A DNA stretch of 53,293 nucleotides from Planctomycetota bacterium (GTDB taxonomy: Bacteria > Planctomycetota > Planctomycetia > Pirellulales > PLA5), in assembly GCA_029259895.1 (NCBI GenBank), contig JAJDEG010000122.1:1-53293 (forward strand), given 5' to 3'. Shown one piece after another: positions 1,357-51,794 of this stretch (within the stretch, counting starts at the first letter, position 1; every line of letters begins with the position of its first letter). The notes beneath the pieces were generated by a model that ran no database searches, was not told the DNA's origin, and saw only the letters and a list, made by a program, of their open reading frames with translations. A program made the position numbers and the translations under genes.

Positions 1357-1388
1357 CTGAACCAACGACTTATCATGTGGGCTGATAC

Positions 1389-3062: not shown

Positions 3063-3064
3063 CG

Positions 3065-8538: not shown

Positions 8539-8541
8539 TCC

Positions 8542-9333: not shown

Positions 9334-9406
9334 CGGAATAGAGGGAAATCAAAGGAAGTGAGGACGGCGTAACGCTATCAACAAACGCCCGGGGAGACTG
9401 CAACTC

Positions 9407-12400
9407 ATGCCAGCGTCATCGCTTTTTCAAAACGGCGACACGGTTGTCCTGCGGTCCAACCGCGCGCAGGTCGGCAGGATAATCAGGGATCCGGATCTCG
9501 ATGGGGGCGAATATTGGTATCGAGTTCAATTCGCAGCGCAAGTCAAGAACGTTGTCGAAGACGACCTCGAATTGTTGACCGGAGACCTCGACTCCGTCGA
9601 GTCCCTGATAAGCCAGGGTCGCTGGGGTCACGTAGATTCGTTCCGGTGCGCGCTTGCCGTGGAACGGATTACTCAAACGGATAGTCGCAGCACGGTCTAT
9701 TCCTATCGGGCTCAGCGGATTCTCTTTGAAGCGTATCAGTATAAACCGCTACTCAAAATCCTCGATTCGCCTGATCGTCGGTTGTTGATTGCCGACGAGG
9801 TTGGGTTGGGAAAGACCATCGAAGCCGGCCTGATCTTGACTGAATTCGAGGCGCGCCATCGGTCACTCGACAGGGTGTTGATCGTATGTCCGTCGCGGCT
9901 CCGCCAGAAATGGCGTGAGGAATTGAATCGAAAATTCGACCAGGACTTCGAGATCTTCGACAAGCGCGCGTTGCTGCAGTACGTTGAACGCCTGCGCGAT
10001 AATCCCCACCGCAGCCGTTTACGGGCGATTGTCTCGATGCAAACGCTCCGCAACGAACAGCTTCGCGAACAACTCTTGGCCGAGGTGCCACAAATTGATG
10101 TCGTGATCGTGGACGAGGCCCACCATGCCAGAAACCCTCTCACGCAGACGTCCGAAACGCTCCGTGACATTGCGGCGATTGGCGTCTGCGTGGTCCTGCT
10201 CACGGCGACGCCGCTGCACTTGGGCAGCAAGGATTTGTTCACGTTGTTGAATGCGTTGCGGCCAACCGAGTTCCGCGACGCAAATGTTTTTGAGAACGAT
10301 CTGCGCCGCCATCGCGGCGTTATCGAAGCCGGATTGCGCGTTCGTACACGTGCTGCCGAGGCGTTGCCACAAGTCGTCGACCTGTTACGCGAGGTGTTCG
10401 TGGACGGATCGTTGTTCGATGTTCAGGATCCGTTGGCGAAACAGGTAATTGAGGAGATTCAGCAGGCGCCGCCCGAGGACGCGCGTGATTGGGTCGACTT
10501 AGAGCGGCGCATTCAGGATCTGCATCCGTTGGCCAGCATCCTCACTCGCACGCGGAAGCGCGACGTCCAAGAAAACGCGCCGATGCGTCGCGCCCACGTC
10601 GTTTCTTGCCCGTGGACTGAGGAGGAAGATGATGCTTATCGACGGCTTGTTAGGAGTGCCGCCAAGCGAGGCTGGATCCAGGGGCGTTTAGGTTTCGGCG
10701 AGATTCAGCGCGCTCGACAAGCGGCGAGCTGCCTCCCCGCGACGTACAATACGCACATGGCCCTTCCAGCGACGTCCGACGATGAGGCCGTCGAACTGTC
10801 GGACATCATGCCGAGCGAAACGCTGGAGGCTCCCGCGGATGAAGACGCACATGCCATTGGCCGCACGTCAGGGCCTTGGAGCGGGCCCGACTCCAAGTAC
10901 GCCAAGCTGCGTGAGATTCTTGATCTCCTGTCGGCGGAGGAACCGCAGGCCAAAGTCCTCGTGTTTTCCTACTTTCGAGGAACAGTGAACTACCTAGCGG
11001 ATCGTTTGTCGGCCGAGGGGTTTCCCGCCCTCTCGATTCACGGAGACGTTCGGTCAAGTCCAACGCGACCTGAGCATGACGAACGGGGCAGGCGGATACT
11101 ACAGTTTCGAGAAGATCCGAGCGTTCGCGCGCTCATTTCGACCGAGGTCGGTAGCGAGGGACTCGACTTTCAGTTTTGTCACCATGTCGTGAATTACGAT
11201 CTTCCCTGGAACCCGATGGTGGTCGAGCAGCGGATTGGCCGCATCGACCGATTCGGCCAGGAATCGAACGTCGTTCATATCCACAACCTCGTTGTCGAGG
11301 GAACGGTGGAAGATCGGATTCTCCTTCGACTATATAAGCGGATTGGGATTTTCGAGCAGAGTATCGGTGATCTTGAAGCCATCCTCGGCGAAACGGTCAG
11401 CGAACTACAGCGGGATTACGTCAGCGGCAAGCTGACGCCGGAAGAAGCGGATCTCCGCGTCGATCAGGCCGCCTGGGCGATCAATCGACGACGTTCACAC
11501 CTCGAGACCCTGGAGAGAAACGCGGCCGACCTGTTCGGGCACGACGAATATATCCGCCAGGAGATGGAACGCGTCGGTCGGCTGGGTCGCTTCGTCAGCG
11601 AGAATGCCATGTTGGCGGTCCTTCGCAGCTATCTCCAGATTTGCCATCCGACCATTCAGCTCTGGGAAGAAGTCACGGGGATTTTTGGATTGCGGCTGAC
11701 CGACGAATTGCGCCGCGACATCCAAGATGCTTCTCGCGGTGGGCATGTGTGGATGGATCGAAGCCGCAGCGGCCGTCTGTTGGTCACGACGCACGGCGAC
11801 ATTGCTTTCCGTCGGTCGGATGTCGAACTGATCAATGTCTCGCATCCCCTCGTACGTGCGGCGGTTGCCGCGATTGGCCAGCAATTAAAAGACGCGGCAG
11901 CGCGCGTTGGACAGGCAGTCGTGCGACTTGAGCGAAACGCAGACCTGGAGCTGTCGAGTGGCAAGTTTTTTGTTGCCGTTTTCACGCATCAGGTCGACGG
12001 CCTTCGAGCGAGGCAGATCCTGGAAACCGCGGCATGGTCCGAGACCGACGGCAGGCTACTCGGTGCCGAAGAGAGCGAACGTCTGCTACACCTCGTCGTT
12101 GAGCGTGGCCAGCAATGGGATAGTTCCCAGGACGCTCATGCGATGCCGACCGCGCTCTGGAATCAAATCGTCTCCCAAGTCAGAACCCGCAATCGCCACT
12201 TGCTAGAACGGGAGAAACGTGAAAATGAGGCGCTGTACGTCCGCCGCAGACGAGCGATTGAAGCGGAATACCAATACGACCGTCAACTGAAGGCCACGCG
12301 GCTTGAAACCGCCCGGGCGCGCGGTCGCGAAGACCGGATCCTGCGCGCATTTCAAGGGCAAGTGGACAAGGCAGACTCCAACCATCGTGAGAGACTCGCT

Positions 12401-12481
12401 AGCCTGGACCAGACGCGCGAAGTAAGTGCCCAACTATCGGATCCGGTCGCCGCCTGTCTCGTCGAGGTGCGGCGCATTTGA
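9407..12481 (+). CDS. drmD: DISARM DrmD-like SNF2-family helicase
   Basis: Motifs LIADEVGLGKTIEAGL (motif I), VIVDEAHHARN (DEAH) and helicase-C DLPWNPMVVEQRIGRIDRFGQ. The protein is 1024 aa. Confidence 0.85.
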   Translation: MPASSLFQNGDTVVLRSNRAQVGRIIRDPDLDGGEYWYRVQFAAQVKNVVEDDLELLTGDLDSVESLISQGRWGHVDSFRCALAVERITQTDSRSTVYSYRAQRILFEAYQYKPLLKILDSPDRRLLIADEVGLGKTIEAGLILTEFEARHRSLDRVLIVCPSRLRQKWREELNRKFDQDFEIFDKRALLQYVERLRDNPHRSRLRAIVSMQTLRNEQLREQLLAEVPQIDVVIVDEAHHARNPLTQTSETLRDIAAIGVCVVLLTATPLHLGSKDLFTLLNALRPTEFRDANVFENDLRRHRGVIEAGLRVRTRAAEALPQVVDLLREVFVDGSLFDVQDPLAKQVIEEIQQAPPEDARDWVDLERRIQDLHPLASILTRTRKRDVQENAPMRRAHVVSCPWTEEEDDAYRRLVRSAAKRGWIQGRLGFGEIQRARQAASCLPATYNTHMALPATSDDEAVELSDIMPSETLEAPADEDAHAIGRTSGPWSGPDSKYAKLREILDLLSAEEPQAKVLVFSYFRGTVNYLADRLSAEGFPALSIHGDVRSSPTRPEHDERGRRILQFREDPSVRALISTEVGSEGLDFQFCHHVVNYDLPWNPMVVEQRIGRIDRFGQESNVVHIHNLVVEGTVEDRILLRLYKRIGIFEQSIGDLEAILGETVSELQRDYVSGKLTPEEADLRVDQAAWAINRRRSHLETLERNAADLFGHDEYIRQEMERVGRLGRFVSENAMLAVLRSYLQICHPTIQLWEEVTGIFGLRLTDELRRDIQDASRGGHVWMDRSRSGRLLVTTHGDIAFRRSDVELINVSHPLVRAAVAAIGQQLKDAAARVGQAVVRLERNADLELSSGKFFVAVFTHQVDGLRARQILETAAWSETDGRLLGAEESERLLHLVVERGQQWDSSQDAHAMPTALWNQIVSQVRTRNRHLLEREKRENEALYVRRRRAIEAEYQYDRQLKATRLETARARGREDRILRAFQGQVDKADSNHRERLASLDQTREVSAQLSDPVAACLVEVRRI

Positions 12482-15565: not shown

Positions 15566-16192
15566 ATGTCCCAGCTAACCGATCCCATCGACGGCAGCGT
15601 GACGATCTGGCTCCAGTCACTTCGCCGGGGCGACGACGCTGCCGCCCGGCAGGTCTGGGATCGGTATTTCGCCCGCGTCGTCGCGCTGGCCCGGCGGAAA
15701 TTCGGCACGCGGCCCCGTCGCGTTTCCGACGAAGAGGACGTGGCCATTAGCGTCCTTGCCACGCTGGTTCGCCGTGCCAAGGAGGGCCGTTTTCCCGACT
15801 TAAACGACCAGCGTGCCCTTTGGTGCCTTCTCGTGGCGATTACGCAGCGAAAGGTTGCCGGAGTGCTGCGAAAAGAAGGCCGTGGCAAGCGCGGCGGCGG
15901 CAAAGTCCGCGGCGACTCGGTGCTGGCCAAAGCCGGAGGTGGCGACCGTCCGTTCAGCTGGGACGATTTCGCGGCCGACGATCCCACCCCGGACTTCCTC
16001 ACCGCCATCGACGAGCAGTACCGGCAGCTCTATGCCGCCCTCCGCGACGACAGTCTCCGAAATGTGGTGGACGCTCTAATGGAGGGTTATACTATCAGCG
16101 AGATTGCCGCCCGCCTGAACGTATCGAAGCGCACCATCCAGCGCAAGGTGAACTTGATTCGAGACAACTGGTCAAGGGTACTCGTGCAATGA
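15566..16192 (+). CDS. ECF-type RNA polymerase sigma factor (kinase-associated type)
   Basis: The start was chosen at MSQLTDPIDGS. The longer ORF from 15104 has a non-protein-like N-terminus that overlaps a minus-strand gene. The region 4 HTH is YTISEIAARLNVSKRTIQRKV. The stop overlaps the kinase ATG (ATGA at 16189-16192). Confidence 0.8.
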   Translation: MSQLTDPIDGSVTIWLQSLRRGDDAAARQVWDRYFARVVALARRKFGTRPRRVSDEEDVAISVLATLVRRAKEGRFPDLNDQRALWCLLVAITQRKVAGVLRKEGRGKRGGGKVRGDSVLAKAGGGDRPFSWDDFAADDPTPDFLTAIDEQYRQLYAALRDDSLRNVVDALMEGYTISEIAARLNVSKRTIQRKVNLIRDNWSRVLVQ

Positions 16193-19100
16193 CGTCGCAG
16201 TTGCACAACAACGGCCTGACTGACGTGTCGCGAAACGATCGCATCGATGTGATCTGCGATCAGTTCGAGGCGGCTTGGCAATCGGGCGCGCGTCCCTCGT
16301 TCGACGACTTTCTGTCCCAAGTCGATGCTGCCGAGCAAGCCGAGCTTTTGAGCCAACTGCTGCCGCTGGAAATCGAATACCGCCGCACCCACGGCGAAGC
16401 ACCGACGGCCCGTGATTACGTTGAACGCTTCGGTCCACTTCGAGCGACCGTCGAACGCGTATTTGGCGAAGGGTCGACGGTGGTGCATAAGGAAATGCCG
16501 ACGCTCGTCTCAGCCCCGTCCACGCCAGCCGCGTCGCCGCGCGTCGGACGTTTTTGGTTGCATGAGGAAATTGGCCGCGGTGCGTTTGGTCGAGTGCATC
16601 GCGCGTATGATGAGCAGCTTCGTCGCGACGTGGCCCTCAAGATTCCGTTTCAGGCCATCGCGCCCGGACAGGAAACGGAAGAGTTTCTCCGCGAAGCTCG
16701 CAACGCCGCCCAGTTGCCGTCCCATTCCGGCATCGTCCCGGTCTTTGACGCCGGCGTGGCAGCCGAAGGCCCGTTTATCGCCTCGGAGTTCGTCGAGGGC
16801 CGCACGCTCAAGGACGAGCTTGAAAGTCGGCACTACAAACCGCGCGAGGCAGCGCAACTTGTTGCCGCCGTCGCCGATGCGCTCGCCCACGCTCACCGCA
16901 GCGACGTGATCCACCGTGACGTCAAGCCATCCAACATCATGTTGCAGCCCCGCACCGCGCCGCAAGGGTCGACAAACGAAGAGTCGACGGCGCTGACCTA
17001 CGTGCCGCGCGTCCTCGACTTCGGTCTGGCCCGCTGTGCCCAGATCGATGTGGGGGCGACGCAGGAGGGAGACCTCAAGGGCACAATTCGCTACATGAGC
17101 CCGGAGCAGGCCCAAGGCAAGGCAAACGCTGTCGATGCCCGTTCGGACGTCTACAGCCTCGGCGTCGTGCTGTTTGAACTCCTCAGCGGCGACACGCCCT
17201 TCTCAGGCTCGCCCACGGAAATCCTGACGCAGGTCGCCCGCAACGACGCCCCCAGCGTACGCGCCCGCAACCGCGCCCTCGACCCCGACCTCGCCGCCGT
17301 CTGCGACCAGTGCCTGCGTCACGACCGCCGCGAACGATACGCATCGGCCGCGGCTTTGGCGGACGATCTACGCCGCTGGCTTGGCGGCGAACCCACTCAC
17401 GCCCGCCCGCTCACGTTCGTCCAGCGAACGATTCGAAAATGCCGCCACCACCGCGCCCGCGTCGCCGCCGCCGTGCTCGCCTGCGTGCTTGCGATCCTGG
17501 CCGTCAGCGTCGCCGCTTGGCAACGAGGGCAGATTCGCAATTCGGATCAGGCGACGGTTCGCGAGGGCATTCATGCGTACTTCGATGCGCCGCCAAGCGT
17601 GCTTGCCACGGCGTTGGGACGAGTACGCGATCTACCCAATGCTCGGCCAGAAATGGAACGACTGCTTGTTTCAGAGTCGCTCGACGAGCATGAGCGCTTT
17701 CGTTTGCAACTCGCGCTTCTAGATAGTGAACCGCGTTACGCATCAACACTTTTCGAGGAACTCTTGACGGCGGGCGTGCATGAATTCCTCGTACTGCGCG
17801 AGGAACTATTGCCTCATGCGGAATCGTTTCTTGAGCGGTTGCGCGAAATCGTCGTGGCGCCCGAATCTGATGTGTCGCCCGCAACTTGGCTGCGGGCGGC
17901 GTGCGCTTTAACGCGCTTCGAGAACTATTCTGCGTCAACAATCTCGACCGAATTGGCGGAAGAAATGGCAATGCTGCTCGCTTCCCAGCCAAAGGAAGAA
18001 ATTGAGGCCTGGGCCGAGGCAGCGCTTCCCGCGAAGCTGTACCTTCAGGCCCCACTGCGCGCTCGTCTGTCAAGTGAAACGTATGGTCTCGCATCCTGTT
18101 ACATTCTTGTGCATTTCCTCCATACGCAACCGGATGAGCTCGCCGCCCTATTGTTGGAAACAACTGCCGAGCAGCACCAACCCGTCTTAGCGGCGCTACA
18201 GCAACATCGTCGCTCCGCCGAAGAGACCATGGCCAAGTCTAATTCCGTGCCGCCGGACTCCGCCGCATACGACCTCGAAAGCGAGTCATCAGTCCACCGC
18301 CGTGCCGTCGCCACGATAGCCTTGTTGCAGATCGGTAACCGTAAAGCCGCTTGGCGTCAATTCGTTTATGGTTCTGACCCACGCGTGCCGACACAACTCA
18401 TTCGCGAGGCTGCACCACGCGGACTATCAGCAGACGTTCTAATGCAGCGTCTGCCAGAGGAGAGCGATTCCGACGCGTTGTACGTTATGATCCTTTCCTT
18501 GGGCCATTATCCGTTCGATGAATTATCTCCGGGGAACCGTGCTCGCCTACTTCCTTGGTTGACTCGAACCTACGAAGCACACCCGGATTCCGGTATTCAC
18601 GCTGCATCGGCTTGGCTTCTGCGCCGTTGGGGATGTAATCTTTCCGCAACAGACGCGGTGTTGATCAAGCAAGGCCTACGAGAGGATCGAAACTGGTATC
18701 TCAACTCCATGGGCCAACTGATGGTGGTGATTCGAGCGCCCCACGCGATGCCGATTCGGCCACAAGCTTCTCAGAATAAACAACCCCTCAGATCTGACGA
18801 ATCGAGTTGGCGCATTCCGAACGGCTTCGCCATCGCCGCCACAGAGACCACCTACGAACAGTTTCTGCAGTTTCGTCCAAGCCATGCGGACCGGCAGGCC
18901 AATCTTCGGGACCCTGATAGCCCGGTAACGGATGTCTCGTTCCACGACGCGGCGGCGTATTGTGCTTGGCTCAGCGAGCGAGAGCGAGTCCCGCCAAACG
19001 AAATATCCGTGCATCAGACGAGCGGCGATAAGGTGATGACAAAGATAAGCTTCCAAAAGCACGGCTACCGGTTGCCCAGCGCCGAGGAATGGCAGAATGC

Positions 19101-19509
19101 CTGCCGTACGCTTAGCGTCACGAGCCGCTTTTTCGGTGAACAGTCGACGCCGGGTTTAGGTGGGTTTTGCTGGACGTCGATGGATGGACGAACGTCACAC
19201 GTTGCGAAGCTGATGCCGAATCGTTTCGGGTTGTTCGACGTGTTTGGCAACGTGCATGAGTGGACGTCGCAGTTCCATGGCGGCCCGCCGGTCGGCGTCT
19301 TTCCCAGCGAAGTTGTCGTGGAACATGCGGCCGCCGTGTTCTATTACGGGGGCGCCAACAACACTCTTGCCGCTGATTTCGCCTGTGATTTACGCTATCC
19401 GTTCGTGGCTCACAATTGGTTTCAAAACCTCGGCTTTCGCATCGCGAGAACCTTACCGCCGAATGCGCCGATGCGCAGTGCGCAGGAACCGGGCGTTTTC
19501 GATCGTTAA
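16189..19509 (+). CDS. Ser/Thr protein kinase, one TM helix, helical region, C-terminal FGE-sulfatase (SUMF1/C-type-lectin-fold) domain
   Basis: Kinase motifs are DVALKIPF, VIHRDVKPSNIML, VLDFGLARC and IRYMSPEQ. The TM helix is VAAAVLACVLAILAVSVAAW. FGE motifs are HGYRLPSAEEWQNACR, NRFGLFDVFGNVHEWTS and NLGFRIARTL. The start was chosen at MTSQLHNNG (16189). Confidence 0.85.
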   Translation: MTSQLHNNGLTDVSRNDRIDVICDQFEAAWQSGARPSFDDFLSQVDAAEQAELLSQLLPLEIEYRRTHGEAPTARDYVERFGPLRATVERVFGEGSTVVHKEMPTLVSAPSTPAASPRVGRFWLHEEIGRGAFGRVHRAYDEQLRRDVALKIPFQAIAPGQETEEFLREARNAAQLPSHSGIVPVFDAGVAAEGPFIASEFVEGRTLKDELESRHYKPREAAQLVAAVADALAHAHRSDVIHRDVKPSNIMLQPRTAPQGSTNEESTALTYVPRVLDFGLARCAQIDVGATQEGDLKGTIRYMSPEQAQGKANAVDARSDVYSLGVVLFELLSGDTPFSGSPTEILTQVARNDAPSVRARNRALDPDLAAVCDQCLRHDRRERYASAAALADDLRRWLGGEPTHARPLTFVQRTIRKCRHHRARVAAAVLACVLAILAVSVAAWQRGQIRNSDQATVREGIHAYFDAPPSVLATALGRVRDLPNARPEMERLLVSESLDEHERFRLQLALLDSEPRYASTLFEELLTAGVHEFLVLREELLPHAESFLERLREIVVAPESDVSPATWLRAACALTRFENYSASTISTELAEEMAMLLASQPKEEIEAWAEAALPAKLYLQAPLRARLSSETYGLASCYILVHFLHTQPDELAALLLETTAEQHQPVLAALQQHRRSAEETMAKSNSVPPDSAAYDLESESSVHRRAVATIALLQIGNRKAAWRQFVYGSDPRVPTQLIREAAPRGLSADVLMQRLPEESDSDALYVMILSLGHYPFDELSPGNRARLLPWLTRTYEAHPDSGIHAASAWLLRRWGCNLSATDAVLIKQGLREDRNWYLNSMGQLMVVIRAPHAMPIRPQASQNKQPLRSDESSWRIPNGFAIAATETTYEQFLQFRPSHADRQANLRDPDSPVTDVSFHDAAAYCAWLSERERVPPNEISVHQTSGDKVMTKISFQKHGYRLPSAEEWQNACRTLSVTSRFFGEQSTPGLGGFCWTSMDGRTSHVAKLMPNRFGLFDVFGNVHEWTSQFHGGPPVGVFPSEVVVEHAAAVFYYGGANNTLAADFACDLRYPFVAHNWFQNLGFRIARTLPPNAPMRSAQEPGVFDR

Positions 19510-20171: not shown

Positions 20172-21044
20172 CTAGGATTTGTGTTTCCTGCCCGTTGCTG
20201 TTTTCGCAGGAATGGCAGAAGGCGAGTGCTTTTCAATCCGGGACCACGATCTAATGCCAGCGAGATTGAGGTCTTGGCACTCCCGATACGTCGGAATCCA
20301 GACATCTTGCGTCAGACGATATTCCATGTGGGATGCCGCAACAAAATGCCAGATTCGCACGTCTGGCACGTTGGCCATGCACGGGTGGCAGTTAAAGTGG
20401 CCCCCCAGTATGCGATAAGGGTGACGAAGGAGCAATAGCTGGAAGGCGATCTCGTCAGGCAAGGGTGCATGGCGTCCCAGACGGGCTAACTCATCCCACT
20501 CGTCCAGGAATGGTGTTCCGGGCTGCACGGCAAACACGCCAGTATTGATGGCGGGCATGCGATTGTTCAGTAGGACACGAATCACGCGCTGAAGGCCGAA
20601 CTTCTTAGCGCCCTCGCCACGCAGTCGTCTCCAGCCACGCAAGCGAGACCGCACCGGCTCTTCTGTCGTCGAAGTGTTGCAGAATTGTGTCGCCGTGACC
20701 GGCGACGTTTCGGCGGACCAAATCAAATCCGCGATGCTGCCGACAACTATCGTATCGGCATCCAAAAACACGGTGGCGTCATACGGAGACGATTGGACGG
20801 CTCTGATCTTCGTCAAGTACGAGGAGACATACCCGCGTCCCCGCCGCTCGGTGAGCGGTAACGTCTCAACGCCCAGCCGCGAGTCTTTCGCCATCAGTCG
20901 ACCGATCGCGTGGGATTGTGGCCGCGTCGTGAAGATGGTTACCGGCCCAGTGTACCACTTCCGAAGCGTATACAGTGAAACCACCAATCGCGCAGCTAGC
21001 GGAGTATCAGTAAGCAAGTAGATGACGCCGACGGACATAGGCAA
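20172..21044 (-). CDS. GT8-like nucleotide-diphospho-sugar glycosyltransferase
   Basis: DxD motif VFLDADTIVVG, PAINTGVFAV, and a GT-A-like N-terminus (GVIYLLTD...). Confidence 0.65.
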   Translation of the reverse strand: MPMSVGVIYLLTDTPLAARLVVSLYTLRKWYTGPVTIFTTRPQSHAIGRLMAKDSRLGVETLPLTERRGRGYVSSYLTKIRAVQSSPYDATVFLDADTIVVGSIADLIWSAETSPVTATQFCNTSTTEEPVRSRLRGWRRLRGEGAKKFGLQRVIRVLLNNRMPAINTGVFAVQPGTPFLDEWDELARLGRHAPLPDEIAFQLLLLRHPYRILGGHFNCHPCMANVPDVRIWHFVAASHMEYRLTQDVWIPTYRECQDLNLAGIRSWSRIEKHSPSAIPAKTATGRKHKS

Positions 21045-21152
21045 GGCTCGAAGCGTGACGTGTTTTTAGTTACAGCTGAGCTGGATAGGCCATCGAGGAC
21101 GGTGAACCGAAACCGGTCGCAATGCCTGTTCGACTTACACGACCCTGCCGCG

Positions 21153-21470
21153 TCACTGCGGCATCTCGATGATTTGGCGGAAGTCGCGGTAGTGGCCGCC
21201 GGCGATGTCGACTTCGCCTCAGGCGCCCAGGACGATGCGTAGCTTGCCTCTTCCGCCCGGGGCGGGTCGGACCACGTCGCATTCGTGATAGTAGTTGTTT
21301 GGTTTGGCCGGCAGGTCGCCGTCGCGGTTCTCGAACTCTCTTCCACCGCGCACACCGTGGGGCAACTGACCGCCGCGGCGGATGTCCCGCACCAGTTCGT
21401 CGAGCCCGGCTAGCCGCGGATCGTTGAACGGGTTGTTGCGTCCCCAGATGATACGGTCGCGAATGGGCAT
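21153..21470 (-). pseudogene. RNase Sa/barnase (microbial guanyl-specific N1/T1) family ribonuclease with an in-frame TGA
   Basis: Translation is MPIRD...GGQLPHGVRGGREFENRDGDLPAKPNNYYHECDVVRPAPGGRGKLRIVLGA*GEVDIAGGHYRDFRQIIEMPQ*. It aligns by eye with RNase Sa (FQNRESVLP..YYHEYTV.TPG..TRGTRRIICGE......TGDHYATFSLI). The TGA (complement of 21219-21221) separates the Glu/Arg-bearing part from the GGHY segment that matches the catalytic His. Confidence 0.75.
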
Positions 21471-21489
21471 GTCACGGCCTCTGTACGGT

Positions 21490-21747
21490 TCAGGATATCG
21501 CAGTGCTGCCGTCGCGGTCGTGGGTGGAGTGGCCGCGGGCGATTTCGCGCTCCAGTTGGGCGAGCGTTGTGATGCCGCGTGTCGCGCCGTCCTTGCGTAG
21601 TTCGCGGAAAAAGTGCGTGCCCGTCCCTTCCTTCCAACCGCGACTCGCAATCGCGTTCATGAATTCTGGACCGGTGACGCTCGACAATAGGCGATTCGCG
21701 ATCAGGCCGACGGATTTGATCTCGCTGAGGTTGGACGGCATTGGCAT
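21490..21747 (-). CDS. hypothetical protein (85 aa) immediately upstream of the RNase gene
   Basis: ATG start with high third-position GC. It ends 19 nt before the RNase ATG, which has an AGAGG-like RBS. No family was recognised. It may be the 3' part of a frameshifted gene (see 21748..21937). Confidence 0.5.
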   Translation of the reverse strand: MPMPSNLSEIKSVGLIANRLLSSVTGPEFMNAIASRGWKEGTGTHFFRELRKDGATRGITTLAQLEREIARGHSTHDRDGSTAIS

Positions 21748-21937
21748 TCTCCCGCGACCACAACGCTAATACCAGACGCCCGCCCATCGCGTTGAACACG
21801 TAGAGCGTGCCGCCGCTGTCGGCTTCCATGGCGTCCATCAGGCGATGGAAGTCCGCCGAGGTGGACGGCACGCTGTGCCCATTGCCGCTGAATGGTGGGG
21901 CAACAGGCGAATCGGGAACGTGTTTGCCGCCGCGCAC
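21748..21937 (-). pseudogene. coding-like segment with no stop of its own; probably the 5' part of a frameshifted gene continuing in 21490..21747
   Basis: The frame reads (V)RGGKHVPDSPVAPPFSGNGHSVPSTSADFHRLMDAMEADSGGTLYVFNAMGGRLV with GC-rich third positions. Beyond about 21750 this frame becomes Arg-rich noise, while the adjacent frame becomes coding-like. It shares the frame of the giant gene upstream, separated by one TGA and 9 codons. Confidence 0.35.
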
Positions 21938-27900: not shown

Positions 27901-28645
27901 AGACGTTGTCATCGTTGATGCTGGCGATATCTTCGTTACCGTCGCCGTCGAGGTCGGCGATCACCACGCCTTCCTTGCCGCCCTCGATCCGTTGGCCACT
28001 TCCGGAGATCTTTTCGGTCGGCTGCCAGGACACGTCGAGCGCGAACCGACCGGTGCTTTGATTTGCGTCGGCGTCCGGCGACGCGGCCATCGTCAGGCGG
28101 AAAACTCGCGGTTGCCCATCGTCGAGAGTAGTCAGCTCCTGCGAAATCCGCGCGGACAGCGTGTCGCACGAATTGTCGCTCGACGTGTCGCTCGACGTGT
28201 CGCACGCAACGCCGTCGTTTGACACGAGCAGTTCGCCGGTGGAATCGTCGTAGAGCCACAACATGCTGTCCAGCGCGCTGTCGGCCGCCCGCATGTCGAC
28301 GATCAGCCGGCCGGTCGTCTCGACGCGGAACTCCTTCGTCAGCTTCGGGGCATTGGGCGTAATAATGCCCAATAGTCTCGAATCGGCGGCTTCTTCGAGA
28401 ACCAACGGGGCGCCGATGTCTCGTTCACTCGCCGAGCGAGCCTGCTGCACCAACGGCGGATCGGCCGCGTAGGGCACGGCCGAGAGCATCACGCGTTCGG
28501 CCAGCCGCTCGACGCCGAGCCGCAACGGAGAATGAAGACGTCCACCCGCGACACGGCCGATGCGCGGCCAACGGCGAGCGCCGCCCATCGGCGATCGATC
28601 CCGCCGCGAATTCGGCCGCGAAGGCAAATCGCATGTCGCCGTCAT
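21965..28645 (-). CDS. giant (2226 aa) secreted/surface FG-GAP/VCBS-repeat protein with an N-terminal PPC-like domain, acidic C-terminal region and C-terminal hydrophobic segment
   Basis: There are dozens of repeats of the type GDFNGDGVPDLAV, ADLDGDGNDDLVV and GxGDGTF. The N-terminus has RLGVERLAERVMLSA followed by the PPC-like DSMLWLYDDSTGELLVSNDG. The C-terminus is Asp/Glu-rich and ends with AAAMVLAGMSTGWL plus a basic tail. The ATG overlaps the kinase stop (ATGA at 28642-28645). Confidence 0.9.
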   Translation of the reverse strand: MTATCDLPSRPNSRRDRSPMGGARRWPRIGRVAGGRLHSPLRLGVERLAERVMLSAVPYAADPPLVQQARSASERDIGAPLVLEEAADSRLLGIITPNAPKLTKEFRVETTGRLIVDMRAADSALDSMLWLYDDSTGELLVSNDGVACDTSSDTSSDNSCDTLSARISQELTTLDDGQPRVFRLTMAASPDADANQSTGRFALDVSWQPTEKISGSGQRIEGGKEGVVIADLDGDGNEDIASINDDNVLRVFYGVGDGTFRSPDPIVGNIQASASRTIVAGDFDGDGDLDLVIALATDEKLNFVRNLGEGEWALATGSIPLDGRIGAIAVADLDGDGNDDLVVPTRGTNKIVYGDHEKAFEDWSTATLAATDEEKKGLSESEGASIGDFDGDGRLDVVVTFKDGGAALVWLNQMDSDGQTGKLSFLLKDRVPMGPVDAKKIGTQLIVVADFNADGNVDLAAVNDKSDTVSLRFGNGDGTFDKETNRPEFDVGVDSEVVRLGDFNGDGVPDLAVTNEDTHDMSVLIGLKGPDRKATGSFHPRRVYPTGFRPTDLAVGDFNNDGNEDIAVKLDGGELTFLFGRGDGTFLIEEQPTVGDNPEAIAWADFNYDGFADVAVANVGSHDVSVLLGRGDGTFGTQTLYALDDALSPRALVAADVNDDGRVDLVTANQQTDDVSVLLGLGNGRFVLHAATVPVGDSPWAIVADDFDDDGFVDIATANRKGDSVSVLYGAQSGELSFDRQDHGLAGGMSPELLLAGKTGESRYLATVNRLTHDLTVLTFTPSGRELISTEVAASLPDERTFDARNLPGWEWGSSAEPRLDGDTSPTTFLPRSVTTADFNDDGHQDVAMVDDRTHAYFILLGYGDGTFQPPLQFQTLEDPEYIVADYLDEDEHVDLVTAHDGENQIVIHYGRGDGRFEDGKVHDTLDGPERIVLWDLDGDGRRDILVGNNDEKKLSVFLRESDRQFVAKETPLVVADEATAPLLYAGIAVGRFDHDEIPDVASFDRSEDGAIHIVFGNGDGSFRPGKRVEMSDDGDEKASAEFIAAADLDGNGFDDIVVPDMSADRVWILWNDGGQFTNTFHDFRRPKNLGGSADLDIRQAIVADVDADGRLDIAVVDKFLGEVTVIYGDNLRETFENDALAPKVEHLGVGVFPGTLAAANFTAGDDAGLDLVVGNRGSYDLSILKHNAAGGFKAEARIGRTAAPPAAVVADINRDGYEDVVTIRDIDNDLTIDLGAGDGAKSASGGVDGAVVDPIFVDLNADGRDDVVTLTSRGEILVRYREVTSTGDDNSLRYSPPQIVNVDEQGDKIPARDVVVVEAGGAWLIAATDIQDDTSRPAASAGVVSLYRLRSDGRFDRSTVNVGSGAARIAAGNSNGDVRSDLVVFSAFTATVHSLIQNAGGGFDQFDDPLAVGAGVADVALMSVAEGDSAVDLVVTNRSSGMILVFVGNGDGSFTTTPEFAVRAGDQTHWPYGLTGSAVESVHETATVVGGDVDANGAVDLVAINKGTNSAAVILGKGNRSLAGTRPIALTGSPSAVAIGDVDGDENADLVVLYANEGEAAVLLGDGLGGFTPATNEDGNEIRFTVGNAPTGLSLVDVSGDNILDLVVANRFGDVLTLLGDGHGAFSAFRRSSTSILLTVADVDGDGILDQVFTNESQDTIQVKLSSTGAFMQSASDGLDAPGEVVIADFNRDGVTDLAAPNEGANAIVVYLGIAPGKFAAGRSFPVGGNPAHVTVADVNSDGIPDVVAANSGSNDVGVLLGKGRAESWTFGLGPRLAAGQGPVHTAVADATADGVPDIVVTNQRENTVFVLPGRGGGFFDDRSSSVNVFPVGSSPVQSFVSGNTLTAVNRDSNSLTFFPGMNPLVSSTISTFGLRPVSAVVGDFNFDSRLDLLVAHELDGLFSFFAADGDGFTLLRSQHFAGLSHPTDLAVWDDRGRVSVFGVGDGHEAAVLLFSAVPDNGFDVIRTAGEAHTDFSSFGDTFLPFIVSLFSGADLGTLGLLILEGDDGDTLDEESGGSAGDENEVTNQRLPDEWAEELMPEDDEYEDEEAIAGIADSQLAEMQDPAVHEQEELIDADRVAGHDFFFWYLENEPSDEDSDVVGRKSVTPVGQESNDREDARRQDTAPTEASRKVESAGFPQESKLLLDDSRRAPGGTSSERKEEEPLSVPTGEWELPTAQDHSAAAMVLAGMSTGWLSPQVGSPSGRSEELRTRRFRGWAQRVKA
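28175..28198. repeat. perfect 12-bp tandem duplication (gtcgctcgacgt x2) inside the giant gene
   Basis: Read directly from the sequence. It is in frame and encodes the TSSD-TSSD stretch of the N-terminal domain. Confidence 0.8.
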
Positions 28646-31600
28646 CGTGTGCCTCCTTCGGCCTTAACCGCAATGGTTACAGAAACACCTTGCCTCTGAC
28701 CGAGTTGCGAAGGCCGGGCATGTTTGAGTTTTAGATCGATGTATTCCGGAAAATCGTGAAGTGCCCGGAACGTACCGCTTTCCCCGAACATGCGAATCTT
28801 CAGCGCCTTCGAGTGGGTAAACTTGCCCGCGGCATCGACGCTTGAAGAGTCCTCAAGCGACTCGCGGAGCAGCGCGAGACTTCGCTCCGCGCACGGCCGG
28901 AATCGTGTGCGCAGCTCGCCCCTATCGGATGTTGCAATGCGGGCGGCTAGGGCATAGATGCCAGCGACCTTATAGACGTCAAATGCGTCGCTTGTCTCAT
29001 CCGCAACGCGCTCGGCGTCATCGAATGCGCGATCGAAATCCTTCGCGAGCACGAGGGCAAAGCCGCGGCCGATCAAGGTCGGATGGTCGGCACCGCCGAG
29101 TTCGATGGCGCGGTCGAACGCCGCGACGGATTGCTCCGGCTCGCCGATCATAGCCAGGCAAACACCACGCTGCCGCAATACGCGTGCTTGGCTTTTTTCT
29201 AGTTTTTCGCCGGCGTTTGGGCCGTTCGCGTCGAGCGCGGCCAAATGATACAGCGCCGCGGCACGGCCATAATCCGCGGCCGCACTTACCAGGTCACGAT
29301 CGGGTTCCGCGATGCGTACGCGCAAGTTGCCTCGCAGCTCAAGCACCTCGGGATCACGTTCGTTCGCGGCAAGGTAGGCGTCGAGCGAACTTAGGGCGCC
29401 GCGATTCGCTTCCCGTGCCTTGCGAAGGGCTTCTTTTCGATCCTCTGTTCTTTCCTCGCTTGCAAAGTAAGCGGAACGCACAGTTCGATTTCGCGCCTGC
29501 TTGATCCTCAGCAGCGCCGCGACCAAGTGTGCGTCGCTCGCACGCCTCTTCAAGGCAGAGTTTAGTACGGCGTCTCTCGTATCGGCATTTAGCCTAGCAA
29601 GTTCCAATATCTCGTCGCACGCTCGAATTGCCGTCGTCTGATCGCCATTTTCGATCGCAAAGCCGGTCAACCAGGCGTAATTCACCAGGGCGGCCGCGTG
29701 CTGCGCGGGCGCATCGCGTCGTTCGCGATATGCATCCGCCGCGGACTTACAATCCGCCGCCGCGGCATGGAAGTCGCCTTGCCGAAGTCGGGTTTCCGCG
29801 CGTGTAAGCAGAAGCGACGCCTTCGCCTCGATCGGGGCTGCGTCTAACGCGGAATCAAGAATCGACAATGCCCGTTGGAGCTTTGTCGGTTCTTTCTGTG
29901 CCTGTGCCTGTGCACGGAGCGCGAGTGCGAGTTGTATGTCCGCATCGAGTGCTAAGTGAGGCGACTTGGCTTCGCGCGCTACTCCGGCCGCCGTTTCGAA
30001 GTCGCTGACCGCCGAATCGAGACGGCTCGGATCGACTATTGCACCGTCGAAATGCAGCGCGCCGCGACTCATCAGCACGGCGAACTGCAAGCGAGAAGAC
30101 AAATCACGCGAAAGACCATTTTTGCCAGCGCGTTCATTGGTTAACTTGCGTGCCTTGTCGAAGTCAGCGACAGCGCTCGCATAAGCCGACGCGTTGCGAC
30201 GAGGATCCTTTTCGTAAAGTCGACCGCGCGCGATGCCTCGCAAGATGTACGCGAAGGGAAAATTTTTGACGAGGTGGATGTGCCTCGTAAGTTCATTCTC
30301 GGCGGCGGCCGGTTCGTCCAGCCGAACTCGGCAAAGAGCCATGAAATAGCTCGTCCAAACTCGGTCCGAATCCAATTCGTAGCTTTGTTTGAAATGCCGC
30401 AGAGCGGCAGCGTAATCCGCTGGATCTTCGTTGCTCGACACCAGTTGCAAGCGGCGGCATCCGGCGACGAAATGATCAAATGCGGTAGCGTCTGGCGGGA
30501 GCGACTCGTGTGAAGCGTCGCCGTCGCGTCCTTCGCTGACCGCTTCTAGCTCAGTGCGCATCAGCCGATACGTGTACAGTGGCATTTCGCTAGGACCGTC
30601 CGATGAACTTTCTGCGGCGTCACCGCCAACCGACGTACCATTGGCGAGGTTGACCAACCCGATTCGCTCGGCCGCGGACACCTCAGCCAGTGCCAATTGC
30701 GCCCGCGCTGGTTTCTTTTCGATGTCGTCTTGCCCCGTTCCAGCGTCAAATCGATACGTTGCCTGGGCATGGATGAGAATAATCTCACAAGCCAGTTTCT
30801 TTGTCTCTTTGACGTCCGTATCGGAAAATGGTGCTCCCCCGTAATAATGAATTTCGTTTGCGTCGTTTGTTGCGTGCTGCATCTGTTTCCACAGCAAGCC
30901 GGAAGAATCCTTGTCTAGCGACTCTAATTCCGAGAAATCGATTCCCAATTCAGCTAGAGCAGCGCGAGACGTCTGTCGTACTTCGCGGATTGCATGTTGA
31001 TAGTCCGGGGGCAGCGGCACGCTGCCAAAAACTTGGGCAGGCAGCGCGTCGGTGCGAATCTCCGCCTCGCCTACGGACCCGATTGTGCTTGCAATGTCGT
31101 CATCGCGATGGGCACGGCCATCCGCTGCGATCTGAGTCAGCGCATCCGAAACGTCCGGAGTATCGTTCGCAGGTTCGATCAACAATCGATTCGGTTCCAC
31201 CTCGTTGGGCCCACCGGAGCGAACGTGGCGCCCGGTGAACATGAGCGACCCGAGCAATTCCATCACGTCGCGGTGTAGCCTTTCAAGGTTGTCTTTCCGA
31301 ACCTCGATTGCGGTAATGTCCTGTTCCAAATCCTCAACGATCTTGATGGTTTTTGCCGTCGCGTCGAGTTTGCCGGAGAACGACTCGACGGCATCCAAGC
31401 CACTTTTGATTCGTTCGTCATCCGGTGCCACTTTGCGCATGTCCTTGTATATGGCCATTAGCACGTTGATTTCGGCTCGCGCTAGCTCAACGCCATCGGT
31501 GGCCCCTGCTTCGCCAATTGCATCCGAAACGGTTTTCGTTTGGCTCTGGGCGCGGCCCATAAGCGTTTTGAATTGCTCGTTTCGCTCAGCAAAACGAATT

Positions 31601-33147
31601 AACCCTATCCCCAATGCCGTAATCGTGGCCACCGCTGCCACTGTGCTCATCCCCGCTGCGATGGCCCGCGCTGGGTGGCGCTTGGCCCATTTCACCAGCC
31701 GTTCGGGCCGCGAGGCTGGTCGCGTCAGAATCGGTTCGCCTCGGAGATAACGGCCCAGCTCGTCCGCCAATTCCTTCGCCGAGGCGAAGCGCTTCAAGCG
31801 TTCTTTCTCAAGACAGCGAAAACAGATCGTCTCCAGGTCGCGCGACGTCTTTGGCGCGTGTCTGAGGATGCTTGTCGGGGCTTCCTTTTGTATGTTGTTC
31901 ATGATCGTCAGGCGGTCGCCGTGGAACGGCAATGTGCCCGCGAGCATTTCGTACATCACGATGCCGAGCGAAAAAACGTCGCTGCGGGCGTCGGCCGAGT
32001 TTCCCTTGCCGGCAGCCTGCTCCGGCGACATGTAGGCAACCGTGCCGATAAGCTCGCCGGCCGAAGAGAGCACAACGTTTTCGCTCGCGCGTTTGGCGAG
32101 ACCGAAGTCGGTCAGGTGCGGCTCGTCGTCCGTGTCAAGCAGAATGTTCGACGGCTTTACGTCACGGTGCACGATGCCCTGGCCGTGGAGATAGTGCAGC
32201 GCATCGGCAACCTTGCGGCAGAGACCGGCGACGTCCTCGGGCGCTCTGCGGCTGATGCGGAGCGACGTTTCCAGGTTGTCTCCCTTGATGTACTCACTGG
32301 AAATGTACTCGCTGTCGCCCTGGACCAATTCATAGACGTGAACGATGTGCGGATGATTCAAGCCGGCGAGAGTACGTGCTTCGTTGCGAATCAGGTTTGG
32401 CCGTTCTTCGCCTTTGCGGCGGCTATACGGAATCTTAAGCGCCGCGTGCCGCTCTAGCTGTTGATCGAACGCCAGCCAGACATTGGCAAACGACCCACGC
32501 CCCAACCAGCGAACTAGCTGATAGTTGCCGACGATCTCCCCTTCGCGCTGGTCACCGCGCCGCGCATCGATGATCGGAACTTTCTCACCGCACTGGCAAG
32601 TGACAACCTCAACGGCCGCGGCCGTCAACTCCGGAACGGCGATCGACGTATGGCACTGCGGACAGCGGACGAACCTCGCCGTCGGCTGGGTCATGTCCGT
32701 TTCTTCATCGCGCAGCCTCTCGCGAAGCTGATCGACGTGGGATGGGAACCGGGCGAAGTACTCGCCGTGATCGACCTTGTCGCCCGCCATGTTACGTGCT
32801 TTGAATTCCTGGACGACCAAATCGACGGGCATGTCTTCCGCGGAACCGAGTTCCGGGAACTGGGCGAGATAGTCTTCGATCCGCGGTTTCGACGGCAGCC
32901 GGTCGTCGGTCGAGTCGATATGGCTACGCGGGAACCCCTCCTTCCAGCGGTACTCGATGTCGACTTCCACTAACTCGACGAGCAACTGCCGACGCGTGTA
33001 ACAGTTGGCCTCGGCTGTAACGTGGTCAGGAAGGAACTCTTCTATCGCCGGCGTGGCCGTGCCTTGCCATGCCGTGTCGAACCGTTCGCGGCGACGTCGA
33101 AAGTCCTGTGCCCGCCGCCCTCTTGTTGGACTCTTGGTGCTCGCCAT
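28642..33147 (-). CDS. Ser/Thr protein kinase with a zinc-ribbon-like segment, one TM helix and a long TPR-like C-terminal region
   Basis: Kinase motifs are HAALKIPY, IVHRDVKPSNILL, LTDFGLAKR and VAYMSPEQ. CPQCH...CQCG precedes the kinase domain. The TM helix is AIAAGMSTVAAVATITALGIGLI. An AAGGAG RBS lies 8 nt upstream of the ATG at 33147. Confidence 0.9.
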   Translation of the reverse strand: MASTKSPTRGRRAQDFRRRRERFDTAWQGTATPAIEEFLPDHVTAEANCYTRRQLLVELVEVDIEYRWKEGFPRSHIDSTDDRLPSKPRIEDYLAQFPELGSAEDMPVDLVVQEFKARNMAGDKVDHGEYFARFPSHVDQLRERLRDEETDMTQPTARFVRCPQCHTSIAVPELTAAAVEVVTCQCGEKVPIIDARRGDQREGEIVGNYQLVRWLGRGSFANVWLAFDQQLERHAALKIPYSRRKGEERPNLIRNEARTLAGLNHPHIVHVYELVQGDSEYISSEYIKGDNLETSLRISRRAPEDVAGLCRKVADALHYLHGQGIVHRDVKPSNILLDTDDEPHLTDFGLAKRASENVVLSSAGELIGTVAYMSPEQAAGKGNSADARSDVFSLGIVMYEMLAGTLPFHGDRLTIMNNIQKEAPTSILRHAPKTSRDLETICFRCLEKERLKRFASAKELADELGRYLRGEPILTRPASRPERLVKWAKRHPARAIAAGMSTVAAVATITALGIGLIRFAERNEQFKTLMGRAQSQTKTVSDAIGEAGATDGVELARAEINVLMAIYKDMRKVAPDDERIKSGLDAVESFSGKLDATAKTIKIVEDLEQDITAIEVRKDNLERLHRDVMELLGSLMFTGRHVRSGGPNEVEPNRLLIEPANDTPDVSDALTQIAADGRAHRDDDIASTIGSVGEAEIRTDALPAQVFGSVPLPPDYQHAIREVRQTSRAALAELGIDFSELESLDKDSSGLLWKQMQHATNDANEIHYYGGAPFSDTDVKETKKLACEIILIHAQATYRFDAGTGQDDIEKKPARAQLALAEVSAAERIGLVNLANGTSVGGDAAESSSDGPSEMPLYTYRLMRTELEAVSEGRDGDASHESLPPDATAFDHFVAGCRRLQLVSSNEDPADYAAALRHFKQSYELDSDRVWTSYFMALCRVRLDEPAAAENELTRHIHLVKNFPFAYILRGIARGRLYEKDPRRNASAYASAVADFDKARKLTNERAGKNGLSRDLSSRLQFAVLMSRGALHFDGAIVDPSRLDSAVSDFETAAGVAREAKSPHLALDADIQLALALRAQAQAQKEPTKLQRALSILDSALDAAPIEAKASLLLTRAETRLRQGDFHAAAADCKSAADAYRERRDAPAQHAAALVNYAWLTGFAIENGDQTTAIRACDEILELARLNADTRDAVLNSALKRRASDAHLVAALLRIKQARNRTVRSAYFASEERTEDRKEALRKAREANRGALSSLDAYLAANERDPEVLELRGNLRVRIAEPDRDLVSAAADYGRAAALYHLAALDANGPNAGEKLEKSQARVLRQRGVCLAMIGEPEQSVAAFDRAIELGGADHPTLIGRGFALVLAKDFDRAFDDAERVADETSDAFDVYKVAGIYALAARIATSDRGELRTRFRPCAERSLALLRESLEDSSSVDAAGKFTHSKALKIRMFGESGTFRALHDFPEYIDLKLKHARPSQLGQRQGVSVTIAVKAEGGTR

Positions 33148-51535: not shown

Positions 51536-51794
51536 GCGTTGACGGCAAGGATCGGGTCCAACGAGAGGAGGCCAACAACCTTCCGTCGGTTAGCGAGAAC
51601 TGCCGTTGCCAGGATCGGAACCAACGGAACTTGCCGTTATTGCGAACGCCCGTTTGATGGCAAGCGGCAGCGTGGCCCAGTGCTGTAGTACGGTGGTCAA
51701 CTCTGGGTCCGATGCGGCTGATTTCAGGACAAGTGCGCTCCAATGTGCGCCCACGCCTGTAGAAACAGCGATTTTCTCGGCGTTTTTTGAGATC

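What the first reader, a model, noticed from the sequence alone, without database searches (positions are those of the whole stretch)
21153..21470. RNase Sa/barnase-family toxin gene disarmed by an in-frame TGA placed just before the catalytic histidine
Seen: the translation through the stop is ...REFENRDGDLPAKPNNYYHECDVVRPAPGGRGKLRIVLGA*GEVDIAGGHYRDFRQIIEMPQ*. Established: in RNase Sa the general base is the Glu of YYHEY, the phosphate-binding arginines lie in RGTRRI, and the general acid is the His of GDHY. All four contexts are recognisable here (YYHEC, RGKLRI, GGHY). However, the TGA (complement of 21219-21221) truncates the protein before GGHY. The same frame continues for 21 more codons to a second TGA at 21153-21155, giving a normal family length of about 105 aa. 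I could find no signal peptide and no barstar-like gene downstream (21045-21152). Inference: this is a cytotoxic RNase lacking an obvious inhibitor that has been neutralised by a nonsense mutation. Less likely, it is expressed only by rare stop-codon read-through.
Basis: partly seen in the sequence, partly recalled or inferred. Interest (0 to 1): 0.7.

Follow-up and report, generated by a model that had tools for sequence, protein, structure and literature searches.

The report
Broken RNase Sa-like gene (pseudogene)
This is a small RNA-cutting enzyme gene from a planctomycete, knocked out by a single stop codon just before its catalytic histidine; it is most likely an ordinary, recently dead gene and not a regulated or recoded toxin.

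Summary
On the minus strand an ORF runs from the ATG at 21470 to an in-frame TGA at 21221-21219 (83 codons). The same frame continues for 21 codons to a second TGA at 21155-21153. The Pfam Ribonuclease model (PF00545) and RNase Sa/Sa2 align across the stop and include the GHY histidine. About 50 relatives, all from Planctomycetota, are uninterrupted proteins of about 105 aa, 60-71% identical. Most have Gly at the stop position, and one uses GGA, which is one base change from TGA. TGA is an ordinary stop in this window. No SECIS-like or Rfam element is present. A second assembly of run SRR15505512 also carries the TGA.

The copy has radical changes at near-invariant positions (Y64C, Y88D, T90A, N92G), three of them after the stop. 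The post-stop peptide is an outlier against the family (z = -2.7) while the pre-stop part is normal (z = -0.8). The gene next door is also truncated. Best reading: a recent pseudogene.

The "toxin disarmed for want of an inhibitor" story is not shown. Intact relatives also lack a signal peptide and any conserved barstar-like neighbour. Interest is low. The only mildly new point is the leaderless family itself.

The parts
21219..21470 (-). Truncated RNase Sa-like ORF: the ATG at 21470, 83 sense codons, then the premature TGA. It encodes the family-specific N-terminal extension (MPIRDRIIWG..NPF.DPRL), the helix, the F-x-N loop, the general-base Glu63 (YYHEC) and Arg74/Arg78 (RGKLRI).
   Evidence: PF00545, 37 bits; P0001, 83 aa, and 50 homologues; alignment A1.
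21219..21221 (-). Premature in-frame TGA, at a family column that is mostly Gly. Relatives use GGA, GGC, GGG or GGT there, and GGA to TGA is a single G>T change.
   Evidence: The same base is present in an independent Logan assembly of run SRR15505512.
21153..21218 (-). Post-stop remnant: 21 codons in the same frame (GEVDIAGGHYRDFRQIIEMPQ) plus the family's normal stop at 21155-21153. It encodes the last two beta-strands and the general-acid His93-Tyr94. It carries Y88D, T90A and N92G at conserved columns.
   Evidence: the Pfam alignment extends to profile position 97/98, +7 bits; PDB alignments; deviations; z = -2.7; strands 87-91 and 98-101 in the model of relative P0002.
21045..21152 (.). 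A 108-nt spacer between the RNase remnant and the next gene (20172..21044, 290 aa, weak GT8-like hit). It holds no ORF and no barstar-like gene.
21490..21747 (-). Upstream neighbour: an 85-aa ORF from a conserved small planctomycete family of unknown function. This copy lacks the C-terminal ~30 aa of the family, and a Cys invariant in the other members is Arg here. It ends 19 nt before the RNase ATG. It is not a conserved partner of the RNase family.

Best explanation
This is a recently inactivated (pseudogenised) copy of a Planctomycetota-specific, leaderless RNase Sa-like gene of about 105 aa. A single G>T change turned a Gly codon (GGA-like) at position 84 into TGA. Translation therefore ends after 83 residues. 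The product lacks the last two beta-strands and the general-acid His93-Tyr94, so it cannot form the RNase Sa fold or cleave RNA (this step is inferred from the established mechanism of the family). The downstream 21 codons are still recognisable but already carry radical substitutions at positions that are almost never changed in relatives, as expected once selection is lifted. The neighbouring small gene is also truncated, which suggests a local patch of gene decay or rearrangement. Shown: homology across the stop, the standard genetic code, intact relatives, and reproducibility of the TGA in a second assembly. Inferred: loss of activity, relaxed selection, and the order of events.
For: The frame and the stop are as described. 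The Pfam and PDB alignments run through the stop to the His strand. All 14 relatives read at DNA level are uninterrupted ORFs, and the protein hits are nearly all 104-107 aa. The stop column is Gly in most relatives and GGA in L001. TGA ends at least eight long genes in the window, and ORFs of 2226, 1501, 1229, 1210 and 1024 codons carry no internal stop. This shows the standard code and low sequence error: I estimate below 3% chance that an error would hit this 105-codon gene. A Logan assembly of SRR15505512 is 100% identical over 4271 bp, including the TGA. The window copy has three non-conservative changes at columns conserved at 90% or more (Y64C, T90A, N92G) plus Y88D, whereas most members have 0-2, mostly conservative, changes. 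In a leave-one-out PSSM the pre-stop part scores z = -0.84 and the post-stop part z = -2.7, second lowest of 48. There is no SECIS-like stability (z = 0.14) and no Rfam hit. The upstream gene is truncated too. Other family members in public data are also disrupted (P0081, P0082, P0083, P0086, P0087, P0149), so decay of this gene is not unusual.
Against: I could not inspect reads. The second assembly may come from the same read set, so a systematic error or a minor-allele issue is not fully excluded. The excess of substitutions after the stop rests on four residues (z about -2 to -2.7) and is suggestive only. There is no frameshift or deletion in the remnant, so the gene would be functional again after a single reversion if the four substitutions are tolerated. 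Basal UGA read-through would still give traces of full-length protein.
Confidence: 0.8

Rival explanations
1. Sequencing or assembly error, or a minority allele. The organism actually has an intact gene with a sense codon (probably Gly) at position 84.
For: Only one contig and one run carry this sequence. No near-identical DNA exists in the genome or metagenome collections for comparison. A single base decides the matter.
Against: An independent Logan assembly of SRR15505512 gives the identical sequence. More than 10,000 codons of long ORFs in the same window are unbroken. The lesion is a substitution and not a homopolymer indel. The extra radical substitutions in the same gene and the truncated neighbour fit real decay.
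Confidence: 0.07
2. A leaky or programmed stop. The TGA is read through at low frequency, so a dangerous cytoplasmic RNase is made only in trace amounts or under special conditions.
For: The downstream frame is open and ends at the family's normal stop. UGA is the leakiest bacterial stop (my own knowledge). Two distant relatives (P0083, P0087) are broken within four codons of the same place.
Against: No relative among about 50 has a stop here. There is no significant RNA structure after the TGA and no Rfam element. The breaks in relatives are frameshifts, in P0083/L100 at a run of six G, which is a trivial mutational hot spot. Others break at residues ~43, 64 and 72. The post-stop peptide has lost conserved residues, which is not expected if it were still used.
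Confidence: 0.05
3. The truncated 83-aa protein is kept for a non-catalytic role, for example binding through the very conserved N-terminal extension.
For: The pre-stop part scores within the family range (z = -0.84). The N-terminal 24 residues are the best conserved part of the family.
Against: Without strands 4 and 5 the fold seen in the model of P0002 cannot close. Y64C lies in the retained part. No other truncated member ends at this position with a clean stop.
Confidence: 0.05
4. The TGA is recoded, either as selenocysteine or through an alternative genetic code.
For: One relative (P0011/L025) has Cys at the aligned column.
Against: The column is Gly in most members and is otherwise variable (S, H, N, A, D). 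The RNA after the TGA is no more stable than shuffles. Many long genes in the window end at TGA and none contains it in frame. No tRNA-Sec is found in the window.
Confidence: 0.01

Closest known systems
RNase Sa, Sa2 and Sa3 of Streptomyces aureofaciens (Pfam PF00545, microbial guanyl-specific ribonucleases)
   Same: Best sequence matches in the PDB (Sa2 E = 1e-11; Sa E = 1e-7). They are also the best fold matches for the modelled relative P0002 (TM 0.66-0.71). The catalytic constellation is aligned: Glu63/Glu54, Arg74/Arg65, Arg78/Arg69, His93-Tyr94/His85-Tyr86. The size is similar, about 100 aa.
   Different: RNase Sa enzymes are secreted with a signal peptide and have a Cys7-Cys96 disulfide (my own knowledge). 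This family has no leader and no Cys pair. It has its own highly conserved 20-residue N-terminal extension (MPIRDRIIWG..NPFSDPRL) and is confined to Planctomycetota. The window copy is interrupted by a stop before the His.
Barnase/binase with barstar, and Tox-Barnase/Imm-barstar modules of polymorphic toxin systems (Zhang et al. 2012, PMC3482391)
   Same: Same superfamily: barnase scores E about 0.01-0.03 by sequence and TM about 0.5 by fold. These are small metal-independent RNases that can act as toxins. One relative is followed by a SUKH/SMI1_KNR4 gene, a known immunity superfamily. One divergent relative sits directly after VgrG and PAAR genes.
   Different: Imm-barstar is described as specifically associated with barnase-like toxins (PMC3482391). 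Here there is no barstar and no other conserved neighbour in 16 or more loci. The gene is a stand-alone ORF that begins at its own Met and is not the C-terminal tip of a large toxin. No trafficking domain is present.
Nonsense or frameshift pseudogenes of small accessory genes in bacterial genomes
   Same: A single inactivating point mutation, a still-recognisable downstream frame, extra radical substitutions, a decayed neighbouring gene, and further disrupted copies among relatives.
   Different: Nothing notable. This is the class it fits best.

Membership tests
Microbial ribonuclease, Pfam PF00545 (RNase Sa / T1 / barnase) | Profile HMM score above the curated gathering score (24 bits) | tested here: met
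   37 bits for the 83-aa product and 44.1 bits for the read-through sequence.
Microbial ribonuclease, Pfam PF00545 (RNase Sa / T1 / barnase) | Alpha+beta fold: an N-terminal helix packed on a 4-5 stranded antiparallel sheet | tested here: inconclusive
   Met for the full-length relative P0002 (AF2 pLDDT 78.7; Foldseek TM 0.66-0.71 to RNase Sa). The window's 83-aa product lacks strands 87-91 and 98-101, so it cannot have the complete fold (inference).
Microbial ribonuclease, Pfam PF00545 (RNase Sa / T1 / barnase) | General-base Glu and phosphate-binding Arg residues (Glu54, Arg65, Arg69 in RNase Sa) | tested here: met
   E63, R74 and R78 align to them. They are conserved at 90% or more in the family.
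Microbial ribonuclease, Pfam PF00545 (RNase Sa / T1 / barnase) | General-acid His (His85 in RNase Sa) present in the translated product | tested here: not met
   H93 is encoded only after the in-frame TGA at 21221-21219. It is invariant in all relatives.
Secreted RNase with cognate inhibitor (barnase-barstar type) | N-terminal signal peptide | tested here: not met
   The N-terminus MPIRDRIIWGRNNPFNDPRLAGLDELVRD has no hydrophobic core (read from the sequence). The same holds for all relatives.
Secreted RNase with cognate inhibitor (barnase-barstar type) | Adjacent barstar (PF01337) or other conserved inhibitor gene | tested here: not met
   No Pfam barstar hit on the neighbours in the window or in the relatives' loci. 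An all-against-all comparison of flanking ORFs finds no shared neighbour. tblastn with barstar is negative in the window.
Selenoprotein (UGA decoded as Sec) | SECIS hairpin just after the UGA, and Cys at the same position in homologues | tested here: not met
   The fold z-score is 0.14 against shuffles. There is no Rfam hit. The column is Gly in most relatives and Cys in only one of 50.
Polymorphic-toxin or T6SS cargo effector | Linkage to VgrG/PAAR/Rhs or an N-terminal trafficking domain, plus an immunity gene | tested here: not met
   None was found in the window genes scanned. A PAAR query finds nothing in the window or in the other loci. Only the divergent relative in L100 follows VgrG-PAAR, and only L013/L016 has a SUKH gene.

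The most novel reading that the evidence does not exclude
The leaderless, Planctomycetota-specific RNase Sa-like family may be a cytoplasmically made toxin or effector that is kept harmless without barstar. Candidate means are its conserved N-terminal extension, variable partners (SUKH, VgrG-PAAR linkage, a fused membrane or coiled-coil tail), or breaks clustered just before the catalytic His that act as an off switch: the TGA here, and frameshifts at or beside the Gly-Gly codons in P0083 (a run of six G) and P0087. On that reading the window copy would be an 'off' allele that one base change, or rare UGA read-through, could turn on again.
Probability: 0.05. Interest if true: 0.55.

Novelty: new member of a known kind. 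Interest (0 to 1): 0.18.

Why it matters
As a pseudogene it matters little. It should be annotated as a disrupted PF00545 gene and not as an 83-aa ribonuclease. The surrounding family is a modest lead: a conserved, signal-less RNase Sa-type enzyme found across Planctomycetota with no barstar next to it. That raises the question of how these cells tolerate or deploy it. The question could be tested directly with an intact relative such as P0002 or P0037 and its SUKH neighbour.

Tried and rejected
1. Alternative genetic code or selenocysteine. Rejected: TGA terminates many long genes and never occurs inside them, there is no stable hairpin, no Rfam element, no tRNA-Sec in the window, and Gly (not Cys) sits at the aligned column.

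2. ORF 21490..21747 as inhibitor. Rejected: it has its own family, it is never next to PF00545 genes, it has no homologue in 13 RNase loci, and it is truncated here. It has no Pfam, NCBIfam or PDB match.

3. A conserved neighbour of the RNase family. None was found by all-against-all BLAST of flanking ORFs or by Pfam.

4. The C-terminal ~215-aa extension seen in P0062, P0071 and L012 as a detached partner elsewhere. No match in the other loci or in the window.

5. Ser/Thr kinase linkage. Kinases lie within 4 kb in 6 of 16 well-flanked loci, or 7 of 17 counting the window. The window alone has two kinases in 53 kb, so the background is too high to claim enrichment.

6. T6SS context. VgrG-PAAR is found only in L100; PAAR is absent from all other loci and from the window.

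7. A search for a near-identical allele with a sense codon. There were no matches in genome contigs or metagenome contigs, so population-level support for or against the TGA could not be obtained.

8. PADLOC and NCBIfam on the RNase. No hits.

9. Short-patch gene conversion from the upstream ORF as the source of Y88D, T90A and N92G. All four derived bases match the upstream sequence. However, the ancestral homology is only 14 of 21 nt, and a second similar match (21371-21404) involves ancestral sequence on both sides. Chance resemblance of GC-rich codons is therefore at least as likely. Left as a note.

Full report
**Observation.** Against Pfam PF00545 (Ribonuclease) the 83-aa product scores 37 bits and covers profile positions 26-75 of 98. 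With the stop bridged, the score rises to 44.1 bits and the alignment runs to position 97 of 98; the gathering score is 24. A search of PDB sequences gives RNase Sa2 (E = 1e-11), Sa3 and Sa as best matches, with unbroken alignments from residue 29/30 to residue 100. E63, R74, R78 and H93-Y94 fall opposite Glu54, Arg65, Arg69 and His85-Tyr86 of RNase Sa. The catalytic roles of those residues come from my knowledge of the RNase Sa literature; the residue numbering is confirmed in PMC2956060.

**The family.** A search of 5.8 billion proteins returned the window's own 83-aa product plus 50 relatives. These are 60-71% identical (one outlier at 47%) over 89-100% of the bridged sequence, and almost all are 104-107 aa.
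- Their alignment shows a tight family with consensus MPIRDRIIWGxxNPFSDPRLxGLD...YYREYDV...RGKLRxVLGxGGEVYITGNHYRDFRQIINMP.
- His93 is invariant, Arg74 and Arg78 are invariant or nearly so, and Glu63 and Tyr94 are conserved at 90% or more.
- Nine of the ten species-representative genomes that carry it are Planctomycetota MAGs (Planctomyces, Pirellulales, Planctomycetaceae, Isosphaeraceae); the tenth is labelled Alcaligenaceae.
- An AlphaFold model of relative P0002 (pLDDT 78.7) has a helix at 23-33 and strands at 40-46, 61-66, 77-82, 87-91 and 98-101. Its best PDB fold matches are RNase Sa, Sa2 and Sa3 (TM 0.66-0.71), followed by barnase.
- The family has no signal peptide and no Cys pair, and it has a very conserved 20-residue N-terminal extension not seen in RNase Sa.
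- A profile search of 1.84 billion cluster representatives found 2904 PF00545-like proteins at E up to 1e-3, but only roughly 25 clusters that share this N-terminus.

**Is the stop real, and is it a stop?**
- All 14 relatives read at DNA level have an uninterrupted ORF.
- The column of the stop is Gly in most of them (codons GGA, GGC, GGG, GGT; otherwise Ser, His or Asn). L001 uses GGA, so one G>T change gives TGA.
- In the window, TGA ends genes of 1210, 614, 1024, 2226, 1501, 739 and 727 codons, and none of these long ORFs contains an internal stop. The code is therefore standard.
- Those same long ORFs (10 genes, more than 10,000 codons in all) also show that sequence quality is high. From them I estimate that a disruptive error in a given 105-codon gene has a probability below about 3%.
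- A Logan assembly of run SRR15505512 carries a contig that is 100% identical to window 22489-18219, TGA included.
- The RNA after the TGA is no more stable than shuffled controls (z = 0.14). No Rfam family matches 20900-21900, and no tRNA-Sec is present in the window.
- No near-identical DNA exists in the genome or metagenome collections, so allele frequencies could not be examined.

**Signs of decay.**
- Besides the stop, the copy differs from the family at columns conserved at 90% or more: Y64C, T90A and N92G. It also has Y88D at an aromatic position. Most other members show 0-2 deviations, mostly conservative ones such as I/V or N/D.
- In a leave-one-out position-specific scoring, the 83 pre-stop residues fall inside the family distribution (z = -0.84). 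The 21 post-stop residues are the second worst of 48 (z = -2.7). The difference between the two segments is about two standard deviations from the family mean. This is what relaxed selection downstream of a nonsense codon predicts, though it rests on few sites.
- The upstream ORF (21490-21747) belongs to a separate small family of 89-116 aa with no Pfam or PDB match. The window's copy aligns only to residues 1-80, lacks the C-terminal ~30 aa anywhere in the window, and has Arg where all the others have Cys. It ends 19 nt before the RNase ATG.
- Two adjacent damaged genes point to local decay or a rearrangement.
- Disrupted copies of the RNase family also occur elsewhere. There are frameshifted products (P0081, P0082, P0083, P0086, P0087, P0149). 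There are also fragments fused in frame to unrelated ORFs in L036 and L037, although some of these may be assembly artefacts.

**Toxin without an inhibitor?** The flanks of the RNase gene differ in every locus examined, and no neighbour is shared. No barstar was found.
- One locus (L013/L016) has a SMI1_KNR4/SUKH gene directly downstream. SUKH is a known immunity superfamily (PMC3482391).
- One divergent relative (L100) follows VgrG and PAAR genes.
- Some members carry a C-terminal extension of about 215 aa, apparently coiled-coil/transmembrane judging from the sequence (P0062, P0071, L012).
- Several loci have Ser/Thr kinase, FHA or PP2C genes next door. Kinases are so dense in this window (two in 53 kb) that I do not claim enrichment.

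Lacking an adjacent inhibitor is thus the rule for intact members, so it cannot be read as the reason for inactivation here. Whether the family is toxic at all is untested.

**Mechanism and verdict.** The most likely account (about 0.8) is a recent nonsense pseudogene. Translation stops at codon 84. The product lacks strands 4-5 and the general-acid His, and it is inactive and probably unstable (inference from the fold model and the known mechanism). The rivals are:
- an error or minor allele (about 0.07);
- a leaky stop that gives traces of enzyme (about 0.05);
- a non-catalytic role for the fragment (about 0.05);
- recoding of the TGA (about 0.01).

The finding is a new, broken member of a known enzyme family and is of low interest. 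The only mildly new element is the leaderless planctomycete RNase Sa-like family, which has no cognate barstar.

**Window context.** Going downstream on the minus strand from the RNase:
- a 290-aa gene with only a weak GT8 hit (20172-21044);
- two unannotated small ORFs;
- a convergent 1229-aa Ser/Thr kinase with an FGE-sulfatase domain.

Going upstream:
- a 2226-aa FG-GAP repeat protein and a 1501-aa kinase;
- an ECF sigma factor.

The left 12.5 kb of the window holds a class 1 DISARM system.

Noticed in passing
window 21490-21747 (-): The 85-aa ORF upstream of the RNase belongs to a small conserved planctomycete family (89-116 aa, no Pfam, NCBIfam or PDB match). This copy lacks the last ~30 aa (...GKTLHWICxGxAYIVYNxxTRTLITFSxGR), and a Cys invariant in the other members is Arg here. 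It looks like a second damaged gene, ending 19 nt before the RNase start.
   Followed up: yes
window 21177-21210 versus 21514-21547 (and 21371-21404 versus 21531-21564): A 34-nt direct repeat (26/34 identical) links the RNase post-stop region (DIAGGHY) and the upstream ORF (EIARGHS). All four derived bases behind Y88D, T90A and N92G match the upstream sequence. These two pairs are the only matches of 26/34 or better within 1 kb in the window outside the FG-GAP repeats. This could be a micro gene conversion or a chance similarity of GC-rich codons.
   Followed up: partly
window 196-12481 (+): A class 1 DISARM defence system: the DrmMI C-terminal part (196-1356, apparently cut by the window start), DrmA (3065-6697), DrmB (6694-8538), DrmC (8542-9333) and DrmD (9407-12481). 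An OLD/GajA/AriA-like AAA ATPase gene (1389-3062) sits between DrmMI and DrmA.
   Followed up: partly
window 53192-53293 (+): An Rfam group II intron domain D1-D4 match (RF02003, 68 bits), cut off by the end of the window.
   Followed up: no
window 51753-51845 (+): ARAGORN calls a 93-nt tRNA-Gln(ttg). It is unusually long and overlaps ORF 51807-53147 on the other strand, so it may be spurious or intron-containing.
   Followed up: no
L005, L008, L009, L010, L011, L015 and L003; window 15820-19509 and 28642-33147: Ser/Thr kinase genes lie next to or near the RNase-family gene in six loci (an FHA-kinase in L011). FHA and SpoIIE/PP2C genes lie directly upstream in L003. Kinase density is high in these genomes (two in this window, one of them fused to an FGE-sulfatase domain), so the linkage is not clearly above background.
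   Followed up: partly
L100:1-2693: A divergent family member (P0083) lies directly after VgrG (Phage_GPD) and PAAR genes and before a 192-aa ORF, which is a T6SS/contractile-injection cargo layout. Its frame is broken by an extra base in a run of six G at the Gly-Gly codons, one to two codons from the window's stop. The His strand is intact in the +1 frame.
   Followed up: partly
P0062, P0071, L012:4001-4970: Some family members have the RNase domain at the N-terminus fused to an extension of about 215 aa that looks coiled-coil and hydrophobic (possibly transmembrane). In L012 this tail appears to be split by a frameshift.
   Followed up: partly
L036:634-774; L037:37-126: Short metagenome contigs carry fragments of the RNase gene (residues 51-97 and residues 1-30) joined in frame to unrelated ORFs. 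These are either gene remnants or chimeric assemblies.
   Followed up: partly
L013/L016:4391-5735: In one relative the RNase gene is followed by a SMI1_KNR4/SUKH gene (an immunity-protein superfamily) and, further on, a ParE-like toxin gene. This is the only locus with a plausible immunity partner.
   Followed up: partly
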